Positions 7-15,297 of a stretch of 15,864 nucleotides of DNA are shown piece by piece (within the stretch, counting starts at the first letter, position 1; each line of letters opens with the position of its first letter). Source of the DNA: a virus. The position numbers and the translations under genes are program-made. The stretch lies in UHGV virus genome UHGV-0248791, one strand, 5' to 3'. The notes under the pieces are model-generated. The model was given only the letters and a program-made list of their open reading frames with translations, had not been told where the DNA came from and searched no databases.

Positions 7-83
7 TGGACCGCCATCGAGGACTCGAACCCCGCGCAACCAGCTTCGAAGGCTGGCGCTCTATCCTGATGAGCTAATGGCGG
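7..83 (-). tRNA. tRNA-Arg (anticodon UCG), phage-borne
   Basis: Reverse complement of 7..83 folds as a 77-nt cloverleaf: acceptor CCGCCAT/ATGGCGG, D-arm GCTC-ATCAGGATA-GAGC, anticodon arm CCAGC-CTTCGAA-GCTGG (anticodon UCG), T-arm CGGGG-TTCGAGT-CCTCG, discriminator T, encoded CCA. Confidence 0.75.
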
Positions 84-90
84 TATGTGA

Positions 91-162
91 TGGTGGCCCT
101 TGCTGGATTTGAACCAGCGACCTGGCGATTATGAGTCGCTCTCACCACTGAGCTAAAGGGCC
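91..162 (-). tRNA. tRNA with CAU anticodon (Ile2/Met type, ileZ-like), with a shortened D-arm
   Basis: Reverse complement of 91..162: acceptor GGCCCTT/AAGGGCC, T-arm GCTGG-TTCAAAT-CCAGC, anticodon loop CTCATAA (CAU), discriminator A, encoded CCA. Only 72 nt because the D-arm is short (3-bp stem, 6-nt loop) and 27:43 is an A-C mismatch, so it may be a degenerate copy. Confidence 0.6.
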
Positions 163-3959: not shown

Positions 3960-5356
3960 AATAAACGCTCCGTTTTACTGCCCGACATGCGGTTATTGCT
4001 GTATCTGCGCGGATTGCCCGGCGTCATGGGTGTGGAAAGAACCCGGGCACTCTCCTGGTCCACAGGCAGAAAATGTCCGTTATGAAAACGCCGGTAAATG
4101 GTCCCGAGTGTGCCATTACGCTGTTTCGTGATGTTGATTTCTGCTATGCCTCTGGCCTGTGTATCCGGGTTATACACCTCATCCCTGTAAAGCATCAGAA
4201 TGATGTCGGCATCAGCCTCTATTTCCCCGGAGTTTTTCAGGTCTGAGTTCATGGGACGTTTATTGGGTCTGGATTCCACGCCTCGGGAGAGCTGGCTCAG
4301 AGCAATCAGCGGGAAACCGCCGGATTTTGCCAGGCTTTTAAGTCCCTTTGAGATTTCCCCCACAGCAAGGTCGTGACGCCCCGTGCTGCGGGTTTTAATC
4401 AGACCGAGGTAATCGACCACCACCAGCGCCGTTTCCGGGTGTTTCATCCGGTGGTGCTTCGTGGTTGCACATATCTCATCAATGGTCAGGTTTGCCTGAT
4501 CCACCATCCAGATATTACGCCCCGTCATTCGTCCCACGCCCTGCGAGAAACGCGCCCAGTCTTCATCTTCAAAACGGGCAACAGACTTAAGACGGGATAC
4601 CGGCATTCCACCGGCAGCAGACACCATACGTTCACCAATCTGGATGTTCGCCATCTCCATGGTGAACAGAAGCACGCCATGCCCCTGCTCAGTCACCTTG
4701 TCGATGATGTCCAGCGCAAGTTCGGTTTTCCCCATCGAAGGACGGGCGGCAATGAATACCAGGTCACCGGGCTCCATACCGCCCGTTTTTGCGTCCAGTT
4801 CATCAATACCGGTCATCAGCGCCCTGGATTTCTCCAGTCCCTGATTGCGGCATTCAACACGGTCGACCACTTCCGGAAGGACATCATCAATGTGAACCGG
4901 CTGAATGACGCCCTTTCCGGTCGACAGTGAGGCCATCATGTTCTGCACATCCTTCAGGGCATCCTCGGCTGCTTCACAGGTATACGCATCACGTAAATTC
5001 TGTAATGCTTCAGTCAGTGTTTTTTCTGCATCGCGCAGTGCGGCATTGCGCCGCAACGCTGCGACATAGTGCTCCAGTGAAGACTTCACCCAGGTTTTGC
5101 GTCCGGTGTCGGTAATCACCGGGGCAAGTTCCGGCATCTCATTGCACAGCAGTACGGGGTCAATGACGCCGGATATGCGAGCCTGTCTGCAAATCCCCGC
5201 GTAAATATCCCGGTACTGACGCACAAAAAATACATCCGCCGGAAGTGTGGCCAGAATATCCATCACTTCCGGATCGGCCCCACGCAGAAAAAACGCACCG
5301 ATGACAGCGCCTTCCAGGTCATCGTTACGCCATGCCGGGGTGTTCTGGCTGGTCAT
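3956..5356 (-). CDS. Replicative DNA helicase, DnaB family (phage-encoded)
   Basis: 466 aa with Walker A GxxxxGKT (IAARPSMGKTELALD) and DnaB C-terminal motifs (SQLSRGVESRPNKRPMNSDLKNSGEIEADADIILMLYRDEVY). ATG 5356 with GGAGG Shine-Dalgarno; ATGA overlap with the upstream gene. Confidence 0.9.
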   Translation of the reverse strand: MTSQNTPAWRNDDLEGAVIGAFFLRGADPEVMDILATLPADVFFVRQYRDIYAGICRQARISGVIDPVLLCNEMPELAPVITDTGRKTWVKSSLEHYVAALRRNAALRDAEKTLTEALQNLRDAYTCEAAEDALKDVQNMMASLSTGKGVIQPVHIDDVLPEVVDRVECRNQGLEKSRALMTGIDELDAKTGGMEPGDLVFIAARPSMGKTELALDIIDKVTEQGHGVLLFTMEMANIQIGERMVSAAGGMPVSRLKSVARFEDEDWARFSQGVGRMTGRNIWMVDQANLTIDEICATTKHHRMKHPETALVVVDYLGLIKTRSTGRHDLAVGEISKGLKSLAKSGGFPLIALSQLSRGVESRPNKRPMNSDLKNSGEIEADADIILMLYRDEVYNPDTQARGIAEINITKQRNGTLGTIYRRFHNGHFLPVDQESARVLSTPMTPGNPRRYSNNRMSGSKTERLF

Positions 5357-7772: not shown

Positions 7773-7963
7773 GGACGCACCTCCGCCGTAGTTACGTATT
7801 TAACCGGGCTACCTTTCATTGAGATGGTTTCACACATCTCTGCCGCTTTCAGTTCCGCTGTTTTTCTGGATTTATAGCGACGGTGCCAGACAGATACATC
7901 CGTGCGAACTGATACATCGTTTCTGTATTCCGTAGTGGAGATGATGATTTCGTAACTAATCAT
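7769..7963 (-). CDS. Hypothetical protein (64 aa)
   Basis: ATG 7963 with GGAGG Shine-Dalgarno 7 nt upstream; ATGA overlap with the stop of the Rha-family gene. Confidence 0.5.
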   Translation of the reverse strand: MISYEIIISTTEYRNDVSVRTDVSVWHRRYKSRKTAELKAAEMCETISMKGSPVKYVTTAEVRP

Positions 7964-8820
7964 GGGCGAACCTCCTTGTCAGAACCATTCAGCCTGGAAT
8001 CAACAAGTGCAGCGCCAAAAACAGCATCACCAACACGGTCGTACAGTTTGCTAGCCAGCGGAGATTCAACGGCCTTAAGCATTGGATAAAGCTGGCTTGT
8101 CCAGATTTGATGGATTTCACGCAAATGCAGGTATACGCCTCTGGCGTTTCGTGCGACAGCTGACATATCAGACGCATCGGCACCTGATAAACTCTTCTCC
8201 ATCAGGTTAAAGGCGTTGATGTATGCCTCTTTGAACCGGGCAGCACGTTTACCAGTGAAGCCCATGGCAAGAAACGCAAAACCGTCGCGGGTGATTTGGT
8301 AACAAGGGAGCTTGCGTGTACCACCGTTCGGTTGATTTACCGAAATCGATGTCTCCGCAAAATTGCGGGCACAAAACTCAGGGGAACAATCCAGAGTGCG
8401 GATCTTTTTCAGCACATCGTCATGACGCTTGGAGAAGAAGTTGGCAACAGCCAAAGAAGTGGTAACGGCCTGGCCGTTGTCAATGGTGATTTCAGGTTGA
8501 GTGAGGGCTGGGATCGTAGCCATGATGGCAGCCTCCGTTGACAGTGAAAAACTTCCACCACCGGAAACGCCAATTTCACTGGTGGTGAACTGGACGGGGT
8601 TGGCGTAACCGGCGTCAACGGAGACCGGCGCACCTTTCGGTGCCCCCGCCCAGCCCACCATAATCTGGATGTGAGCAAATGCGGACGATAAAAAAGACGC
8701 TGGCGCGTCATACATCGCCGTTGACAATTTCAGGACGCCAATCCCGGCACCCGCTTTATAAGGTGCGGAGACAGTGTAACGTCCCGGAATTGCAGAATCA
8801 ATATGCTGGTGGCGGATCAT
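7960..8820 (-). CDS. Rha-family phage regulatory protein (paralog A); alternative internal start at 8523 would give a 187-aa product
   Basis: Rha-like motifs AVTTSLAVANFFSKRHDDVLKKIRTL...ITRDGFAFLAMGFTGKRAARFKEAYINAFNLME. Two nested starts: ATG 8820 (GGGAGG Shine-Dalgarno, ATGA coupling to the upstream gene) and ATG 8523 (GGAGG Shine-Dalgarno), the latter sitting right at the start of the Rha domain. Confidence 0.6.
   Translation of the reverse strand: MIRHQHIDSAIPGRYTVSAPYKAGAGIGVLKLSTAMYDAPASFLSSAFAHIQIMVGWAGAPKGAPVSVDAGYANPVQFTTSEIGVSGGGSFSLSTEAAIMATIPALTQPEITIDNGQAVTTSLAVANFFSKRHDDVLKKIRTLDCSPEFCARNFAETSISVNQPNGGTRKLPCYQITRDGFAFLAMGFTGKRAARFKEAYINAFNLMEKSLSGADASDMSAVARNARGVYLHLREIHQIWTSQLYPMLKAVESPLASKLYDRVGDAVFGAALVDSRLNGSDKEVRP
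8524..8820 (-). promoter_or_regulatory. Conserved structured leader, copy A (candidate cis-regulatory RNA; may also be translated as an N-terminal extension)
   Basis: Transcript sense: site 1 GTCAACGG (8725..8718), terminator-like GACGC-GCCA-GCGTC plus U6 (8709..8690), hairpin GCACC-GAAA-GGTGC (8643..8630), site 2 CUCCGUUGAC (8623..8614), pseudoknot-type helices ACGCCAA/TTGGCGT interleaved with CACCACC/GGTGGTG (8606..8556), site 3 GUCAACGGAG overlapping the Shine-Dalgarno (8542..8533). Confidence 0.4.
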
Positions 8821-9479
8821 AGGTGCACCTCCCGTTGATTACGACGGAACGCGGAGTGACCCTGGACGGTTTCAGCCTCATGGAATGCTTCAATACAGCT
8901 CTCGTAGTACCGCATTGTGCGCAGACTTAACCCAAGCTGAAGCATCATCAGACCATCAAGGGTGATGTAATAACCACGCAGGGAGTCACCGTAGATGTGA
9001 TAAGTACCCGGTATGAAATTGCGGGTAAAAAACCCGCGTGAGCAGTTCAGATACTCGATTTTGTCAACGATGTTCTGGTGCATGCGCTTGAAATGGCAGG
9101 CAACATGCAGGGAGAAAATAACGGCCTTGCCGTTGACGACTTCGATTTTTAGGAATGGGGAAGTTAGGACAGTAGCCATGATGGCAGCCTCCGTATGCAA
9201 TGGATAACTTCCACCACCGGAGCTGCGAAACTCATGGGTGGTGAACTGAACAGGGTTCGCAGTACCGGCGCATACGGAAACCGGCGAGCCTTTCGGCTCC
9301 CCTGCCCAGCCCACCATAATTCTGGCGTGCGTGAGCGCGGACGATAAAAAAGACGCTGGCGCGTCATATATCGCCGTATGCAATTCCGGGCTGCGACCCC
9401 CGGCACCCGCTTTATAAGGTGCGGAGACAGTGTAACGTCCCGAAATTGCAGAATCAATATTTGGTCTTGAAATGATCAT
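8817..9479 (-). CDS. Rha-family phage regulatory protein (diverged paralog B); alternative internal start at 9179 would give a 120-aa product
   Basis: Degenerate Rha-like region AVIFSLHVACHFKRMHQNIVDKI...ITLDGLMML. ATG 9479 lacks a clear Shine-Dalgarno, whereas internal ATG 9179 has GGAGG 8 nt upstream within a 20-nt block identical to copy A. Confidence 0.5.
   Translation of the reverse strand: MIISRPNIDSAISGRYTVSAPYKAGAGGRSPELHTAIYDAPASFLSSALTHARIMVGWAGEPKGSPVSVCAGTANPVQFTTHEFRSSGGGSYPLHTEAAIMATVLTSPFLKIEVVNGKAVIFSLHVACHFKRMHQNIVDKIEYLNCSRGFFTRNFIPGTYHIYGDSLRGYYITLDGLMMLQLGLSLRTMRYYESCIEAFHEAETVQGHSAFRRNQREVHL
9180..9479 (-). promoter_or_regulatory. Conserved structured leader, copy B (same architecture as copy A with compensatory changes)
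   Basis: Site 1 GCATACGG (9381..9374), identical GACGC-GCCA-GCGTC plus U6, hairpin GAGCC-GAAA-GGCTC (9299..9286), site 2 UUCCGUAUGC (9279..9270), helices CTGCGAA/TTCGCAG interleaved with CACCACC/GGTGGTG, site 3 GCAUACGGAG overlapping the Shine-Dalgarno (9198..9189). Confidence 0.4.
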
Positions 9480-9563
9480 ATAGCTGCTGATATCTTTAGA
9501 ACTGTTCTTGGATGTTTCGGAGCCGTTTTATGCGAAACAGCTCCCCGTTATTGATGTTGAGTG

Positions 9564-9588
9564 AGCCGGGTTACTCCCGGCTTTTTTT
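9564..9588 (+). terminator. Strong rho-independent terminator on the plus strand, antisense to the early-right operon
   Basis: AGCCGGG-TTACT-CCCGGCT 7-bp GC-rich stem (9564-9582) followed by a T-run to 9588. On the minus strand the hairpin is not followed by U, so it is unidirectional for plus-strand transcripts. Confidence 0.55.
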
Positions 9589-10295
9589 CACCGCTGCCAA
9601 CCAATAACCTGAAATAACCCCATTTTCGGGTGATACCAGCGAGTCCCTCGCGGTTCTGCTTCCTCCATAATCCGATAAAAAGCAGCCATAAACGGTTCCA
9701 CAGCAACAATTGCGCGACGTGACAACAATCCGTCCGGCGTCATGAACTCATGGGTGTCTGTAGGAATCTGATAGGCGTTCACCAGATTGCGGCATTTATC
9801 ATCTGACAAACCGGTTTTTGCTTTCAGTTGGCGATATCCGGCATAGCCCTCACGAATAGTGCCCTTTTTAATTTGCTCGACTGTTTCAGCAACGTGGCTG
9901 ACTTTTTCTTCCACCTGAGTGATCCGTTTCTGTTGGCGAACGGCTTCAAGAGCCATCGCGGCAACCATTTCGATTTCGCTCATTGGCTTACGGATCTGTT
10001 CTTCCAGTTCGCGCCAGCGATCTACCAGGCGAGCTGTGAATTCAGGACAGAGCTGTGCGACGACAATGATGCTGTCGCGCTTACCTCGTTCACCTTCGAA
10101 TACATACGCGCTAGAAAATCGGCGAGGCCCAAGTGATTGTTTATTCTCAATTTCCACAGTCTGTGGAAATTGGATGATTCCCTTTTTAGCCAGTGTTTCA
10201 ATAGTTCTCTTAACACTATCTGGTCGGCTTCCCACCAGCTCTGCGATCTCAACGCTGGTCATGGATGCTTTGCCGTTAAAAATTGCGGTGTTCAT
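9588..10295 (-). CDS. Rha/antirepressor-family phage regulatory protein (235 aa)
   Basis: N-terminal MTSVEIAELVGSRPDSVKRTIETLAKKGII...GERGKRDSIIVVAQLCPEFTARLVDRW resembles Rha-family regulators. ATG 10295 has an AGGAGA Shine-Dalgarno 6 nt upstream. Confidence 0.7.
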   Translation of the reverse strand: MNTAIFNGKASMTSVEIAELVGSRPDSVKRTIETLAKKGIIQFPQTVEIENKQSLGPRRFSSAYVFEGERGKRDSIIVVAQLCPEFTARLVDRWRELEEQIRKPMSEIEMVAAMALEAVRQQKRITQVEEKVSHVAETVEQIKKGTIREGYAGYRQLKAKTGLSDDKCRNLVNAYQIPTDTHEFMTPDGLLSRRAIVAVEPFMAAFYRIMEEAEPRGTRWYHPKMGLFQVIGWQR

Positions 10296-10519
10296 TGTTG
10301 GTCTCCTGTGGGCTTGTCATCTTCTGTATTCGCTAGACTTGGGTGTGTATATGGAATGCTCGGATCCAGATGACAAAGAATGGCAACATCCTCCGGAACA
10401 CCTCGCGTTTTCCACTTTCCAACACCTTGACTGCCACGAGGCCTTCCTTTCTTTGGGAACCTGCGACCAATAGCGGCATTGGTTTTAAATTGAATTTTTA
10501 ATATTTCATAAAGGGTCAT
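10292..10519 (-). CDS. Questionable small ORF (75 aa) in the Cro position; no HTH recognisable, may instead be an untranslated leader
   Basis: ATG 10519 is only 17 nt from the operator cluster and has a weak Shine-Dalgarno. The product is basic and low-complexity (GRRFPKKGRPRGSQG). The stop overlaps the downstream ATG (ATGA). Confidence 0.3.
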   Translation of the reverse strand: MTLYEILKIQFKTNAAIGRRFPKKGRPRGSQGVGKWKTRGVPEDVAILCHLDPSIPYTHPSLANTEDDKPTGDQQ

Positions 10520-10536: not shown

Positions 10537-10608
10537 GATACTTTGTTATCCAACGATGTTAACCATAGGAACCCAAAGTATCAAGAAATTCTGTTACTTT
10601 AGTATCAA
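10537..10608. promoter_or_regulatory. OR-type operator cluster with divergent PRM/PR promoters between cI and the early-right operon
   Basis: Three copies of an AAGTATC core: GATACTTTG (10537-10545, inverted), AAAGTATCAA (10575-10584), TTAGTATCAA (10599-10608). On the minus strand the motif reads TTGATAC, which overlaps a -35-like hexamer (TTGATA, 17 nt, TAACAT). Confidence 0.5.
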
Positions 10609-10630
10609 CAGCCATGAGAGGAGAAGAAAA

Positions 10631-11287
10631 ATGAAGTCTTTAGGTGAACGTCTCATCAACGCACGGCAAAAAGCTGGGTTAACACAAGATGCGTTGGCTA
10701 AAAAAGCTGGGGTCACCAGAGTTGCAATAAGTAAAGCCGAGCAAGGCCTTACAAAAAGTTTCAACGGTGACACCCTTTTTAAAGTTGCAGCTGCACTGCG
10801 GTGTTCACCGCAGTGGCTTCAGAACGGAGATGAAAAAGATAAGCATTGGGAAAATAATGTTAAGAGCTGCCCACAGAGAGACACAGCACACTCTTACCCT
10901 GTAATTAACTGGGTTCAGGCAGGATTATTCGCAACTTCTGGTGATGACTACAACATGTATGATCAGGATAATTGGAGGCATTCTGTAAAATACGCTGGTG
11001 AGAGGGGGTTCTGGCTGGAAGTGCACGGAGACTCAATGACTTCGCCCGTAGGAATAACATTTCCTGAAGGAATGTCGATCCTTGTCAACCCAGATAAAGA
11101 AGTTTTTTCAGGGTGTTACGTCATCGCCAGAAAAAAATCCACCAATGAAGCAACATTCAAAAAATATATTTCTGACATGGGAAAGGCGTTTCTAAAGCCC
11201 CTTAATCCACAATATCCAATCATAGAAATGGACAATGATTGCGAAATAGTAGGTGTTGTGGTTGATGCCAGATGGGATATTTTCTGA
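10631..11287 (+). CDS. CI-type prophage repressor (N-terminal HTH, C-terminal LexA-like S24 peptidase domain)
   Basis: HTH LTQDALAKKAGVTRVAISKAEQG; S24 motifs GDSMTSP (Ser) and a downstream Lys; candidate Ala-Gly cleavage site in WVQAGLF. Start ATG 10631 with AGAGGAGAAG Shine-Dalgarno; the track's longer ORF lacks one. Confidence 0.85.
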   Translation: MKSLGERLINARQKAGLTQDALAKKAGVTRVAISKAEQGLTKSFNGDTLFKVAAALRCSPQWLQNGDEKDKHWENNVKSCPQRDTAHSYPVINWVQAGLFATSGDDYNMYDQDNWRHSVKYAGERGFWLEVHGDSMTSPVGITFPEGMSILVNPDKEVFSGCYVIARKKSTNEATFKKYISDMGKAFLKPLNPQYPIIEMDNDCEIVGVVVDARWDIF

Positions 11288-11320
11288 CCAGACACAAAAC
11301 ACAAAACACAAAAAGAAACC

Positions 11321-11393
11321 AAAGTATCAAAAATCACTTGCCACGCCTTGATACCTTAGTTACCATAAAACAAAGTTCGTAACTGAGGTATCA
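11321..11393. promoter_or_regulatory. OL/PL-type operator and promoter region downstream of cI
   Basis: The same 10-mer as in OR, AAAGTATCAA (11321-11330), plus the inverted copy TTGATACCTT (11348-11357) and AGGTATCA (11385-11392). Precedes the first plus-strand early-left gene. Confidence 0.4.
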
Positions 11394-11397
11394 TCTC

Positions 11398-11901
11398 ATG
11401 ATCAATAAAGCTACAACTCTTGACTGTCTCGAAGAACTGAAAAACCTCGGCAGCCTCATTACACTAATAGCAAAAGCAACACCTGATGCTACGCTCTCTA
11501 GCGATATAGAGTCATGCGCAGGACTGGCATGGGATATGACAAATAGCATATCCAGAAAGCTATCGTCAGCAATGCTTTTACAGAACAAAAATTCTGCAAT
11601 CAACAACCGTCTTCGCACCCAACGCGAAGCCTGCGGCTTAACAACCGCCGAACTCGCCAGGCTGCTCGATCTCGATGAAGAAATCATCATTCAGTGGGAG
11701 AGCGGAGAGTATGAACCAACCATCAGTATGCTTATCCCACTGGCAAATATTCTTGGCTGCGATCCGATGTGGCTGTTAACTGGCGAGGTTACTCCTCCGG
11801 AGCAACCAAAAAGTGAGGAGCAGCAACACCATGACGCATCTCAACAAGTTTGCCCCTTATCTCGCGAAGCTCTTCTGCGGAAGAACCAATACCAATGGTG
11901 A
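11398..11901 (+). CDS. HTH (XRE-family) DNA-binding protein, first gene of the early-left operon; not N-like
   Basis: HTH in the C-terminal half (LTTAELARLLDLDEEIIIQWESGEYEPTISMLIPLANILGCDPMWLLTG). No arginine-rich N-terminal motif. ATG 11398 with GAGG upstream. Confidence 0.55.
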   Translation: MINKATTLDCLEELKNLGSLITLIAKATPDATLSSDIESCAGLAWDMTNSISRKLSSAMLLQNKNSAINNRLRTQREACGLTTAELARLLDLDEEIIIQWESGEYEPTISMLIPLANILGCDPMWLLTGEVTPPEQPKSEEQQHHDASQQVCPLSREALLRKNQYQW

Positions 11902-14641: not shown

Positions 14642-15297
14642 GCGAAATTAATTACCAGGCACTGCGTGAGGTGGCGGAACGTGCAATTCCAGCAATGGAA
14701 CGCCTGTTAATGTTGCCAGCTGATGATGACTTGTTAAGTGAACAGGAACTTAAAGATTACGGTGTGGATATTGATGCGCTCAACGCCTTCAAATTTCTGG
14801 CCGGACCAGAAACCGTGCTGGCACTACTGGATGAACGGGAAAGAAACCAGCAATACATAAAACGCCGCGACCAGGAGAACGAGGATATTGCGCTAACGGT
14901 AGGGAAACTGCGTGTTGAGCTTGAAGGCAAAGACAAGCTGATTGCAGAGCTTGGAAAACAATGCGCCGAATGGGAGAGAAAAGCATCAAGCAACTTTGAA
15001 GAGTGTGCTGCGATGGCTGAACGTATCGAAGAGTTGGAGAAGACCACCACAGGGCAGGATGCCAATATAAACAGCCAACAGGAACGCGTGACTCAATCAG
15101 CTAATAGGCACGTATATCACTACAACGCAGTGAGCAATGTTAGTGGCATTACCATGTCCGGGATTGCGCAGTCACCTTTCAGAATCAAATCGCAATCCGA
15201 CCTTGAAGAGTTTAAAAGCGCACTTAGCAAGGTTTGTGGTTTCCATGCAACAGCAGTCACATCTCTTTCATATCTTGGGCGTGAGGAAGAAGAGTAA
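14638..15297 (+). CDS. Ea22-like early accessory protein
   Basis: N-terminal MSEINYQALREVAE and the block LDERERNQQYIKRRDQENEDIALTVGKLRVELE resemble lambda Ea22-family proteins (recalled from memory). GTG start with AGGAGG Shine-Dalgarno 6 nt upstream. Confidence 0.55.
   Translation: MSEINYQALREVAERAIPAMERLLMLPADDDLLSEQELKDYGVDIDALNAFKFLAGPETVLALLDERERNQQYIKRRDQENEDIALTVGKLRVELEGKDKLIAELGKQCAEWERKASSNFEECAAMAERIEELEKTTTGQDANINSQQERVTQSANRHVYHYNAVSNVSGITMSGIAQSPFRIKSQSDLEEFKSALSKVCGFHATAVTSLSYLGREEEE

What the first reader, a model, noticed from the sequence alone, without database searches (positions are those of the whole stretch)
9467..9588. Candidate ~85-nt antisense small RNA between the Rha/antirepressor gene and leader copy B
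A strong plus-strand intrinsic terminator (7-bp GC stem, T-run, 9564-9588) sits where no plus-strand gene exists, overlapping the stop codon of the minus-strand 235-aa gene. About 90 nt upstream there is a plausible sigma70 promoter on the same strand (TTGAAA 9467-9472, 18-nt spacer, TATCTT 9491-9496). The predicted transcript (about 9503-9588) contains alternative hairpins (GTTTCG...CGAAAC and GGAGC...GCTCC) and is antisense to the junction preceding leader B. This recalls the sar antisense RNA that controls ant in P22.
Basis: seen in the sequence. Interest (0 to 1): 0.5.

Follow-up and report, generated by a model that had tools for sequence, protein, structure and literature searches.

The report
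Convergent small-RNA gene in prophage early operon
Between an antirepressor-like gene and a known RNA-controlled antirepressor module of an E. coli lambdoid prophage lies what looks like a self-contained gene for an 85-90 nt RNA read against the early operon; it is built like the classic phage antisense RNAs oop and sar but unrelated to them in sequence, and its expression is still untested.

Summary
The strongest intrinsic terminator in the window (stem 9563-9583, seven T to 9588, -14.5 kcal/mol) points along the + strand, where no + strand gene exists. Its T-run shares one base with the stop codon of the minus-strand 235-aa Rha/Ant-like gene. A TTGAAA-18-TGaTATCTT promoter-like site (9467-9496) lies about 70 nt upstream.

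The window is a phiP27/Stx-phage-like prophage. "Leader copy B" is an isrK + C4 RNA module (Rfam), present twice in tandem.

The cassette occurs in 211 of 5426 complete E. coli genomes and in Stx2a/2d phages, in three alleles about 70% identical. All three keep the -35, the extended -10, a 5' decamer GTTCTTGGAT and the terminator, while the middle diverges but still folds into a hairpin. phiP27 has a different + strand terminator at the same spot.

The same scanner rates lambda pO/oop equally. There is no Rfam family, no similarity to oop or sar, and no literature hit.

I read it as a real, undescribed convergent small-RNA gene that most likely acts as an oop/sar-type cis-antisense element. 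A trans-acting role is not excluded. No expression evidence exists, the internal hairpin is not clearly beyond chance, and no target was found.

The parts
9467..9472 (+). -35 hexamer TTGAAA of the candidate promoter
   Evidence: Invariant in 15 of 16 distinct variants across three alleles. Found again by the scanner in alleles T2 and T3.
9488..9496 (+). Extended -10: TG (9488-9489), A, TATCTT (9491-9496)
   Evidence: TG_before_second = yes; the only such site in the window. T2 and T3 have TGgTATTTT. Between T1 and T2 the hexamers plus TG differ at 1 of 14 positions, and the rest of the spacer at 8 of 16 (counted on the alignment).
9500..9588 (+). Predicted transcript of about 85-89 nt (5' end inferred at 9500-9504, 3' end in the T-run)
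   Evidence: Inference from the promoter and terminator geometry. Fold: -30.4 kcal/mol, z -3.5, mostly due to the terminator. The body alone gives z -1.5. No Rfam family.
9504..9513 (+). Conserved 5' decamer GTTCTTGGAT (possible seed)
   Evidence: Identical in 15 of 16 variants while the flanks diverge and carry indels. Its complement occurs nowhere else in the window.
9519..9544 (+). Internal stem-loop: GGAGC / GCTCC with inner GTTTT / GAAAC
   Evidence: Each allele has a different hairpin at this place, and two inner pairs change on both sides. The hairpin is not significant against shuffles on either strand.
9563..9588 (+). Intrinsic terminator: stem 9563-9583, loop TTACT, T7 at 9582-9588
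   Evidence: The stem is invariant in all alleles apart from one C>T that keeps a G-U pair only on the + strand. There is no U-run on the minus-strand side.
9588..10295 (-). Upstream cistron: 235-aa Rha/Roi/Ant-like gene. Its TGA stop (9590..9588) shares one base with the terminator T-run
   Evidence: Pfam Phage_pRha plus winged helix, both below cut-off. PHROG 63 'anti-repressor Ant', E 4e-46. RefSeq calls it a Rha family regulator.
9429..9457 (-). Likely isrK promoter, back-to-back with the candidate promoter: TTGATT 9457..9452, 17 nt, TACACT 9434..9429, +1 at 9422
   Evidence: Read by eye. It scores 8 of 12, below the scanner's threshold. The position fits model position 1 of the isrK match. 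Nine bp separate the two -35 hexamers.
9346..9422 (-). isrK-type RNA, copy B ('leader copy B')
   Evidence: Rfam RF01394, 58.8 bits against a gathering score of 50.
9234..9321 (-). C4 antisense RNA, copy B
   Evidence: Rfam RF01695, 83.3 bits against a gathering score of 45.

Best explanation
Positions 9467-9588 form a self-contained small-RNA gene: a sigma-70 promoter with an extended -10, a transcript of about 85-90 nt, and a strong intrinsic terminator. It is transcribed convergently to the prophage's PR-type early operon, in the 165-bp gap between the Rha/Ant-like gene and the isrK/C4-controlled antirepressor module.

Shown here:
- The signals exist.
- They are conserved as a unit in three diverged alleles.
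- They match the anatomy of proven phage antisense RNAs.

Inferred mechanism:
- The RNA acts in cis like lambda oop or P22 sar. When PR fires, read-through RNA from the Rha/Ant gene into the isrK module forms a duplex of about 85 bp with it.
- That duplex would be cut (RNase III type) and would uncouple or destabilise the flanking cistrons.
- Convergent transcription, and the 9-bp back-to-back overlap with the isrK promoter, add transcriptional interference and promoter competition.
- The terminator keeps this antisense transcription out of the Rha, cro and cI region.

No operator of the prophage repressor lies nearby, so the promoter should be constitutive in lysogens.
For: - The terminator is the top-ranked site of the window and is unique. 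Its energy is -14.5 kcal/mol, against -16.7 for lambda tO. It is oriented for the + strand only, and no + strand gene lies anywhere between 2070 and 10556.
- The promoter scores 9 of 12 with TG. That is the same class as the proven lambda pO with the same tool.
- The cassette is present in 211 of 5426 complete E. coli genomes and is 100% identical in seven Stx2a/2d phages, ASU11 and PhiR49_2.
- Three alleles about 70% identical keep the -35, the TG, the -10, the 5' decamer and the terminator, while the spacer and middle diverge with indels. The scanner finds both signals again in T2 and T3.
- Between window and L004 the isrK and C4 sequences on one side are 100% identical, and the last part of the Rha gene on the other side is nearly identical. 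The conserved blocks inside the divergent spacer are therefore interleaved with diverged ones. They are not simply recombination edges.
- Two stem SNPs keep pairing only on the + strand.
- phiP27 has a different + strand terminator (-13.1 kcal/mol) at the same place after the same gene.
- The nesting is the same as in the annotated P22 sar and lambda oop.
Against: - There are no expression data of any kind.
- Promoter-like sites are not enriched in the window.
- Only three allelic lineages, all from E. coli prophages, carry the conservation argument. The two double-sided pair changes are at most two events.
- The internal hairpin is not beyond shuffles, and in allele T1 it folds better on the minus strand.
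- The RNA covers no ribosome-binding site or coding sequence except one base of a stop codon, so a cis effect would have to work through RNA cleavage or interference.
- In a lysogen the cis target is not transcribed.
- An invariant 5' decamer is not expected for a purely cis-acting RNA.
- More distant Rha/Roi homologues have no spacer at all.
Confidence: 0.5

Rival explanations
1. The same transcript is made, but it works in trans as an Hfq-type base-pairing sRNA expressed in lysogens. It would use the conserved 5' decamer GUUCUUGGAU as a seed against host or phage mRNAs. Its position in the early operon would then be only where a moron-like cassette landed.
For: - The 5' decamer is invariant in three alleles whose neighbouring segments diverge.
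- The architecture is a 5' single strand, an internal hairpin, an A/U-rich linker, and a terminator with 7-8 U.
- No repressor operator lies near the promoter, so it should be on in lysogens, when the cis target is silent.
- Convergent sRNA genes behind prophage cistrons are a known theme in EHEC (PMC4104026).
Against: - No complementary site was found in the window, in isrK, C4, or the leaders of cro, rha and cI, or in about 90 related loci. Only coding-sequence matches of 10-14 nt turned up, in the wrong sense or in variable genes.
- Host targets could not be searched.
- It is not a member of any Rfam sRNA family.
Confidence: 0.25
2. The element is a passive insulator. The + strand terminator only stops stray antisense transcription from the AT-rich divergent isrK promoter region, or from further upstream, from running into the Rha, cro and cI region. 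Any short RNA is a by-product with no function of its own.
For: - A terminator of different sequence sits at the same place in phiP27, where only an 8 of 12 promoter can be found by eye and none by the scanner.
- The RNA body is poorly conserved, and its hairpin is not significant.
Against: - The promoter hexamers and TG are conserved against a diverged spacer.
- The 5' decamer is invariant.
- No other + strand promoter-like site lies upstream within about 7 kb.
Confidence: 0.15
3. No + strand transcript is made. The hairpins act in the minus-strand early mRNA, as a 3' stabiliser of the cro-rha message, as a processing site, or as a boxB-like antitermination signal. Or the signals are a chance combination.
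For: - Both hairpins also form on the minus strand, and in T1 the inner one is a perfect 10-bp helix there.
- The minus-strand loop AGUAA is a purine-rich pentaloop.
Against: - The T-run lies only on the + strand side, and on the minus strand the hairpin is followed by CUCACUCAAC.
- There is no second copy of the hairpin in the window, as a nutL/nutR pair would require, and boxA-like words are at chance level.
- The spacer shows only a mild C over G excess, so there is no rut signature.
- Stem SNPs would give A-C mismatches on the minus strand.
- Chance does not explain the same two signals in three alleles.
Confidence: 0.1

Closest known systems
Lambda OOP RNA (pO - oop - tO)
   Same: - A small RNA (77 nt) with its own promoter and intrinsic terminator.
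- It is transcribed against the PR operon, in the direction of cI.
- It is nested between the second early cistron and the next one.
- Its promoter overlaps the start of the downstream gene.
- The same scanner gives both a 9 of 12 promoter with TG and a strong terminator.
- For OOP, the RNase III cuts in the duplex lie outside cII (PMC5869508). An intergenic duplex can therefore control the upstream gene.
   Different: - No sequence similarity.
- The upstream gene is Rha/Ant-like, not cII, and the downstream unit is an isrK/C4 module, not O.
- The overlap with the upstream coding sequence is 1 nt instead of 52.
- There is no LexA box.
P22 sar RNA (immI)
   Same: - A convergent RNA of about 70 nt between two cistrons of an antirepressor operon.
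- Its terminator overlaps the stop codon of the upstream gene (arc, 2 nt).
- Its promoter lies inside the first codons of the downstream gene.
- The phiP27 version of the junction would, if transcribed, cover the ribosome-binding site and GTG start of a BRO-N antirepressor gene exactly as sar covers ant.
   Different: - In this window the RNA covers no ribosome-binding site or start codon.
- There is no arc/mnt context.
- No sequence similarity.
- The promoter and terminator signals are stronger than those of sar.
Convergent prophage sRNAs of EHEC (AgvB, AsxR, HnrS, Pas sRNAs)
   Same: - Short sRNA genes with an intrinsic terminator.
- They lie convergent to a phage operon behind a cistron, are carried as moron-like cassettes, and are enriched in pathogenic E. 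coli (PMC4104026; PMC13502914; bioRxiv 10.64898/2026.05.13.724894).
   Different: - Those lie in the late region (PR' or moron site), and several are Rfam families that did not match here.
- Their pattern is a variable 5' end with a conserved 3' end. Here the 5' decamer and the terminator are conserved and the middle varies.
IsrK / C4 antirepressor control modules (Gifsy-1 isrK-orf45-anrP; P1 immI c4-icd-ant)
   Same: They are the immediate neighbour: two tandem copies in the window. The candidate promoter is back-to-back with the likely isrK promoter.
   Different: - Those RNAs are on the sense strand of the antirepressor operon and act on its leader (PMC4825925).
- The candidate is on the other strand, upstream of the isrK start, and shows no complementarity to them beyond shuffles.
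- No antisense partner is described for the Gifsy-1 locus in that paper's locus description.

Membership tests
Lambda oop | Sequence homology to oop / tO | tested here: not met
   Local alignment score 16 against a shuffle mean of 13.4 (17% of shuffles as high). Only the C/G hairpin plus T-run aligns.
Lambda oop | Lies between cII and the replication gene O, overlapping about 52 nt of the cII 3' end | tested here: not met
   The upstream gene is Rha/Ant-like. The overlap is 1 nt of the stop codon. Downstream lies isrK/C4.
Lambda oop | Own promoter and intrinsic terminator, convergent to PR, same direction as cI | tested here: met
   (same signal class). cI/LexA-like repressor on the + strand. 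PR-like site on the minus strand at 10584..10556. Prediction only.
Lambda oop | LexA box at the promoter | tested here: not met
   No CTGT-N8-ACAG with at most 1 core mismatch in 9380-9620.
Lambda oop | RNase III-dependent cleavage of the sense mRNA | not testable with these tools
   Needs an rnc mutant and transcript mapping.
P22 sar | Complementary to the ribosome-binding site and start of the downstream antirepressor gene | tested here: not met
   No start codon with a Shine-Dalgarno sequence on the minus strand of 9500-9588. The nearest ATG (9479) lies 24 nt beyond the predicted 5' end.
P22 sar | Nested between two cistrons, terminator on the upstream stop codon, promoter over the downstream start | tested here: met
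   Compare (sar 15021-15090, arc ends at 15022, Psar at 15097-15125, ant starts at 15091).
P22 sar | Sequence similarity to sar; arc/mnt context | tested here: not met
   Alignment score at or below the shuffle mean. No arc or mnt neighbours in the annotation.
Any Rfam 15 RNA family (including AgvB, AsxR, Esr41, STnc100, DicF) | Match at the family's gathering score | tested here: not met
   No match at the gathering threshold. The best permissive hit is sroD, 24.5 bits against 50, and only the terminator aligns.
Hfq-dependent trans-acting sRNA | Intrinsic terminator with at least 6 U, and a conserved single-stranded seed | tested here: met
   7-8 U; invariant 5' decamer. These are necessary features, not sufficient ones.
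Hfq-dependent trans-acting sRNA | Hfq binding and identified targets | tested here: inconclusive
   No convincing target in the window or related loci. The host genome could not be searched. Binding is not testable here.
N-utilisation site (boxA/boxB) | boxB hairpin repeated in both early operons, with boxA upstream | tested here: not met
   The hairpin is unique in the window. boxA-like words are at chance level, and none is adjacent.

The most novel reading that the evidence does not exclude
The cassette encodes a new trans-acting prophage sRNA that is constitutively made in lysogens, including Stx2a/2d-phage lysogens and extraintestinal E. coli. Its invariant 5' seed GUUCUUGGAU would reprogram host or co-resident phage mRNAs. 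Its promoter, back-to-back with and sterically overlapping the isrK promoter, would form a two-RNA toggle that sets the threshold of the IsrK/C4-controlled antirepressors and so of prophage induction. The three alleles of the RNA body could then be specificity variants.
Probability: 0.2. Interest if true: 0.6.

Novelty: new member of a known kind. Interest (0 to 1): 0.42.

Why it matters
If the RNA is made, it adds a third RNA regulator to a locus that already carries two (IsrK and C4). That locus sits next to the immunity region of prophages that include Stx2a/2d-converting phages and prophages of about 4% of completely sequenced E. coli.

It would be an easily testable new example of the oop/sar design, a convergent small RNA nested between early cistrons. 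Here it sits next to antirepressor genes that decide prophage induction, and hence Shiga-toxin release.

It also shows that current annotation hides the RNA layer of this locus. PGAP annotates the spacer and the isrK/C4 DNA as an 'ash family protein' ORF.

Tried and rejected
- **Rfam:** no family at the gathering or permissive threshold.
- **Literature:** exact-sequence search of the paper library found 0 papers. Published EHEC/EPEC prophage sRNAs (AgvB, AsxR, HnrS, Pas) are all late-region genes and different. A 2025 review of phage sRNAs lists nothing at this position.
- **Homology to lambda oop or P22 sar:** none.
- **Small ORF on the + strand:** the ATG at 9513 has no Shine-Dalgarno sequence. 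The frame runs through the terminator, and the ATG is lost in one T3 variant (L004/CFIA, TTGAAT). Rejected.
- **boxB/nut reading of the minus-strand hairpin:** the hairpin is unique and boxA-like words are at chance. Rejected.
- **Rho-utilisation reading of the spacer:** the C-G excess is only about +1 sd. Not supported.
- **Control by the prophage repressor or LexA:** operators of the GATACTTTG type occur only at 10537-10606 and 11315-11363. There is no LexA box.
- **Trans targets:**
  - No complementarity beyond chance in the window, in isrK/C4, or in the leaders of cro, rha and cI.
  - Recurrent 10-14 nt matches in related loci lie inside the integrase or an HTH coding sequence, one of them in the same sense as the RNA. 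I treat these as chance.
- **Wider taxonomic range:** two pattern scans of one genome per species found nothing. IMG/VR gave 91 stretches. Every instance checked there falls in the same three alleles, and BLAST found one copy per locus.
- **More distant Rha/Roi homologues** (phi467, CharmingMan, PSTCR3, D6, KPP5665-2): the next gene abuts, with no spacer and no terminator.
- **phiP27-type junction:** 26 genomes, all at least 99% identical, so there is no variation to analyse.
- **Significance of the internal hairpin:** z is only -0.8 to -2.1 on the + strand and -1.3 to -2.9 on the minus strand.

Full report
**1. Where we are**

The window is a lambdoid prophage of the phiP27 / Stx-phage type.
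- The region 8600-10700 matches phiP27, many Stx1a/2a/2d-converting phages, and prophages in 1107 of 5426 complete E. coli genomes.
- The minus strand carries a PR-type early operon:
  - a cro-position gene of 75 aa (10519..10292);
  - a 235-aa Rha/Roi/Ant-like gene (10295..9588), with Pfam Phage_pRha plus winged helix below cut-off and PHROG 63 'anti-repressor Ant';
  - two further Rha-domain ORFs;
  - replication genes and Q.
- The LexA/CI-type repressor is on the + strand from about 10556-10631 to 11287.
- Operators of the GATACTTTG type flank the repressor at 10537-10606 and 11315-11363.
Rfam finds isrK (RF01394) plus C4 (RF01695) twice in tandem: copy B at 9422..9346 and 9321..9234, copy A at 8766..8690 and 8665..8578. 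These are the IsrK and c4 antirepressor-control modules of Gifsy-1 and P1 (PMC4825925).

**2. The observation**

Everything described is present.
- The + strand terminator GAGCCGGG-ttact-CCCGGCTT plus T7 (9563-9588) is the top-ranked terminator-like site of the window.
- Its hairpin energy is -14.5 kcal/mol, against -16.7 for lambda tO and -7.1 for the isrK terminator.
- Its core is unique in the window and is expected 0.01 times by chance.
- It has a U-run only on the + strand. On the minus strand the hairpin is preceded by A7 and followed by CUCACUCAAC.
- T9588 is shared with the TGA stop codon of the 235-aa gene.
- No + strand gene lies between 2070 and 10556.
- The promoter-like site TTGAAA-18-TATCTT (9467-9496) scores 9 of 12 and is the only one in the window with an extended -10 TG.
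- Alone it would not be evidence, because the window has fewer promoter-like sites than its shuffles (16 against 20.6).

**3. Controls**

- The same scanner on lambda finds the proven pO/oop/tO cassette as TTGAGT-17-CATAAT, 9 of 12, TG present, plus a terminator. That is the same signal class as the candidate.
- On P22 the scanner finds neither the annotated Psar nor the sar terminator. The candidate's signals are therefore at least as good as those of two experimentally established phage antisense RNAs.

**4. Conservation**

*Distribution*
- The 132-bp cassette is in 211 of 5426 complete E. coli genomes (188 at 99% identity or more).
- It is 100% identical in seven Stx2a/2d phages, ASU11 and PhiR49_2.
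- IMG/VR holds 91 stretches that match the pattern, and BLAST found one copy per locus.
- It is absent from one representative genome for each of 185,579 species.

*Three alleles*
- Twenty-one distinct spacer sequences fall into three alleles, T1 (the window), T2 and T3. Alleles T1 and T2 are about 70% identical, with indels.
- In the alignment of 16 variants the invariant blocks are:
  - the -35 (one variant has TTGGAA);
  - the TG and the TAT..T of the -10;
  - GTTCTTGGAT at the predicted 5' end;
  - GTTGAG-GAGCCGGG..CCCGGC-T7/8.
- Between T1 and T2 the hexamers plus TG differ at 1 of 14 positions and the rest of the promoter spacer at 8 of 16. My count gives a one-sided hypergeometric p of about 0.013 for this single comparison.
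- The scanner independently calls TTGAAA-18-TATTTT with TG, plus the terminator, in T2 and T3.
- Between window and L004 the isrK and C4 sequences on one side of the cassette are 100% identical, and the last part of the Rha gene on the other side is nearly identical. The conserved blocks inside the divergent island therefore alternate with diverged ones. That fits constraint better than recombination edges.

*Structure*
- Each allele has a different internal hairpin at the same place, and two inner pairs change on both sides.
- With three lineages this is at most two events.
- The body alone is not clearly more stable than shuffles: z -0.8 to -2.1 on the + strand and -1.3 to -2.9 on the minus strand.
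- Two SNPs in stems keep a G-U pair on the + strand and would be A-C on the minus strand: the terminator C>T in L066, and GAAG>GAGG in L053 and L066.

**5. Other junction types**

- In phiP27 the same gene is followed by a different + strand terminator, GGCCGG-ttttctc-TGCCGGCC plus TTTCTTATTT, at -13.1 kcal/mol.
- By eye, a TTGATT-18-TGaTATTGT site (8 of 12, below the scanner's threshold) lies inside the start of the next gene, a BRO-N antirepressor. A 57-nt RNA from it would cover that gene's ribosome-binding site and GTG start, exactly as sar covers ant. All 26 genomes with this junction are 99% identical or more.
- In the Stx2_14040 type and in distant Rha/Roi homologues the next gene abuts, and there is no spacer or terminator.
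- The cassette therefore behaves as a discrete, moron-like unit of about 128 bp with its own promoter and terminator.

**6. What it is antisense to**

- The isrK match begins at 9422.
- A likely isrK promoter lies just upstream: TTGATT 9457..9452, 17 nt, TACACT 9434..9429. This was read by eye and scores 8 of 12.
- The two -35 hexamers are back-to-back, 9 bp apart, so the two RNA polymerase footprints should overlap. This is an inference.
- The candidate RNA (about 9500/9504-9588) therefore does not overlap IsrK. It is antisense only to transcripts that read through from PR across the Rha/Ant stop codon.
- No minus-strand terminator lies between 9588 and 9365, so such read-through is expected when PR is on.
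- The RNA covers no ribosome-binding site. The only nearby minus-strand ATG (9479, the PGAP 'ash family' start) lies between the candidate's -35 and -10, has no Shine-Dalgarno sequence, and is 24 nt outside the RNA.

**7. Mechanism**

I commit to a real, self-contained, convergent small-RNA gene. I put the probability that a discrete + strand RNA is made at about 0.65.

*Most likely action: cis, in the manner of oop and sar.* This part is inferred.
- Duplex formation with PR read-through RNA would lead to RNase III-type cleavage and decay, or to uncoupling of the flanking cistrons.
- For oop, the RNase III cuts lie outside cII (PMC5869508), so an intergenic duplex can be enough.
- Convergent transcription and competition with the isrK promoter would add interference.
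- The terminator shields the rha, cro and cI region from antisense transcription.

*Main rival: a trans-acting, Hfq-type sRNA.*
- The invariant 5' decamer, the 7-8 U tail and a promoter without a repressor operator argue for it.
- I found no target in the window, in isrK or C4, in the early leaders, or in about 90 related loci. The host genome could not be searched.

*Lesser rivals:* a passive insulator terminator, a minus-strand RNA element (boxB-like, rut or 3' stabiliser), or chance.

**8. Comparison and novelty**

- It works like oop or sar in anatomy but is a member of neither:
  - no sequence similarity;
  - different flanking genes;
  - 1 nt instead of 52 nt of coding overlap;
  - no LexA box;
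  - no ribosome-binding site covered.
- It is not in Rfam 15.
- It is not among the published EHEC/EPEC prophage sRNAs, which are late-region genes.
- Its sequence is in no paper of the library.
- I rate it a new member of a known kind, phage-encoded convergent or antisense small RNAs. Interest is moderate and everything rests on sequence.
- A Northern blot or a look at existing strand-specific RNA-seq of a carrier strain would settle whether the RNA exists.

Noticed in passing
window 8578-8766 and 9234-9422 (minus strand): Two tandem isrK + C4 RNA modules. A 294-nt repeat at 8511-8804 and 9167-9460 is 82% identical. Each module is followed by a Rha-domain ORF. With the 235-aa gene, the early operon therefore carries three antirepressor-like genes in series, two of them behind IsrK/C4 leaders.
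   Followed up: partly
window 9162-9434 and 8817-9479 (minus strand); also 7960-8820: The Pfam 'Ash protein family' domain (PF10554) of the annotated 220-aa and 286-aa ORFs maps onto the DNA that encodes the isrK and C4 RNAs (aa 16-106 = 9434..9162). The PGAP 'ash family protein' starts at ATG 9479, upstream of the isrK start (9422), and has no Shine-Dalgarno sequence. The copy A ORF, in contrast, has a strong GGAGGTG site and an ATGA stop/start overlap (8817-8832). Either this DNA is read both as protein and as RNA, or part of the protein family is a translated RNA gene.
   Followed up: partly
L005 (phiP27) 1437-1530: The phiP27 junction has a different + strand terminator on the stop codon of the same Rha/Ant gene. 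A by-eye promoter (TTGATT-18-TGaTATTGT, 8 of 12) lies inside the start of the BRO-N antirepressor gene L15. A 57-nt RNA from it would cover the L15 ribosome-binding site and GTG, a closer copy of the sar design than the window's cassette. Its local similarity to the T1 RNA scores 21 against a shuffle mean of 12.8.
   Followed up: partly
window 9588-10295 (minus strand) compared with L002 and L004: Alleles of the 235-aa Rha/Ant-like protein differ mainly in the first 60 or so residues (the winged-helix DNA-binding part). The C-terminal 170 or so residues are almost invariant, which suggests allele-specific DNA-binding specificities.
   Followed up: no
window 10537-10606 and 11315-11363: Repeated GATACTTTG(N4)C-type sites flank the repressor gene. 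They are probably the OR and OL operators. A PR-like site TTGATA-17-TAACAT lies on the minus strand at 10584..10556. The ORF listing start of the repressor ORF (10556) lies inside this operator region, so the true start is probably further downstream, where RefSeq calls a shorter protein.
   Followed up: partly
L003 (E. coli ETEC4090) 93-1240: In this strain an IS (integrase-core transposase gene) is inserted between the isrK module and the candidate promoter, a few bases upstream of its -35. The small-RNA cassette and the Rha gene are left intact.
   Followed up: no
window 11745-11760; L098 about 5200-5230: The HTH gene on the repressor side contains GGCAAATGTTCTTGG in some relatives (GGCAAATATTCTTGG in the window). 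That is a 14-nt identity, in the same sense and not complementary, with the 5' end of the T2 allele of the candidate RNA. It is probably chance, although 14 nt in about 10 kb is unusual.
   Followed up: partly
window 7-162 (minus strand): Two phage-borne tRNA genes, tRNA-Arg(tcg) and tRNA-Met(cat), lie at the left end of the window, beyond the early genes.
   Followed up: no
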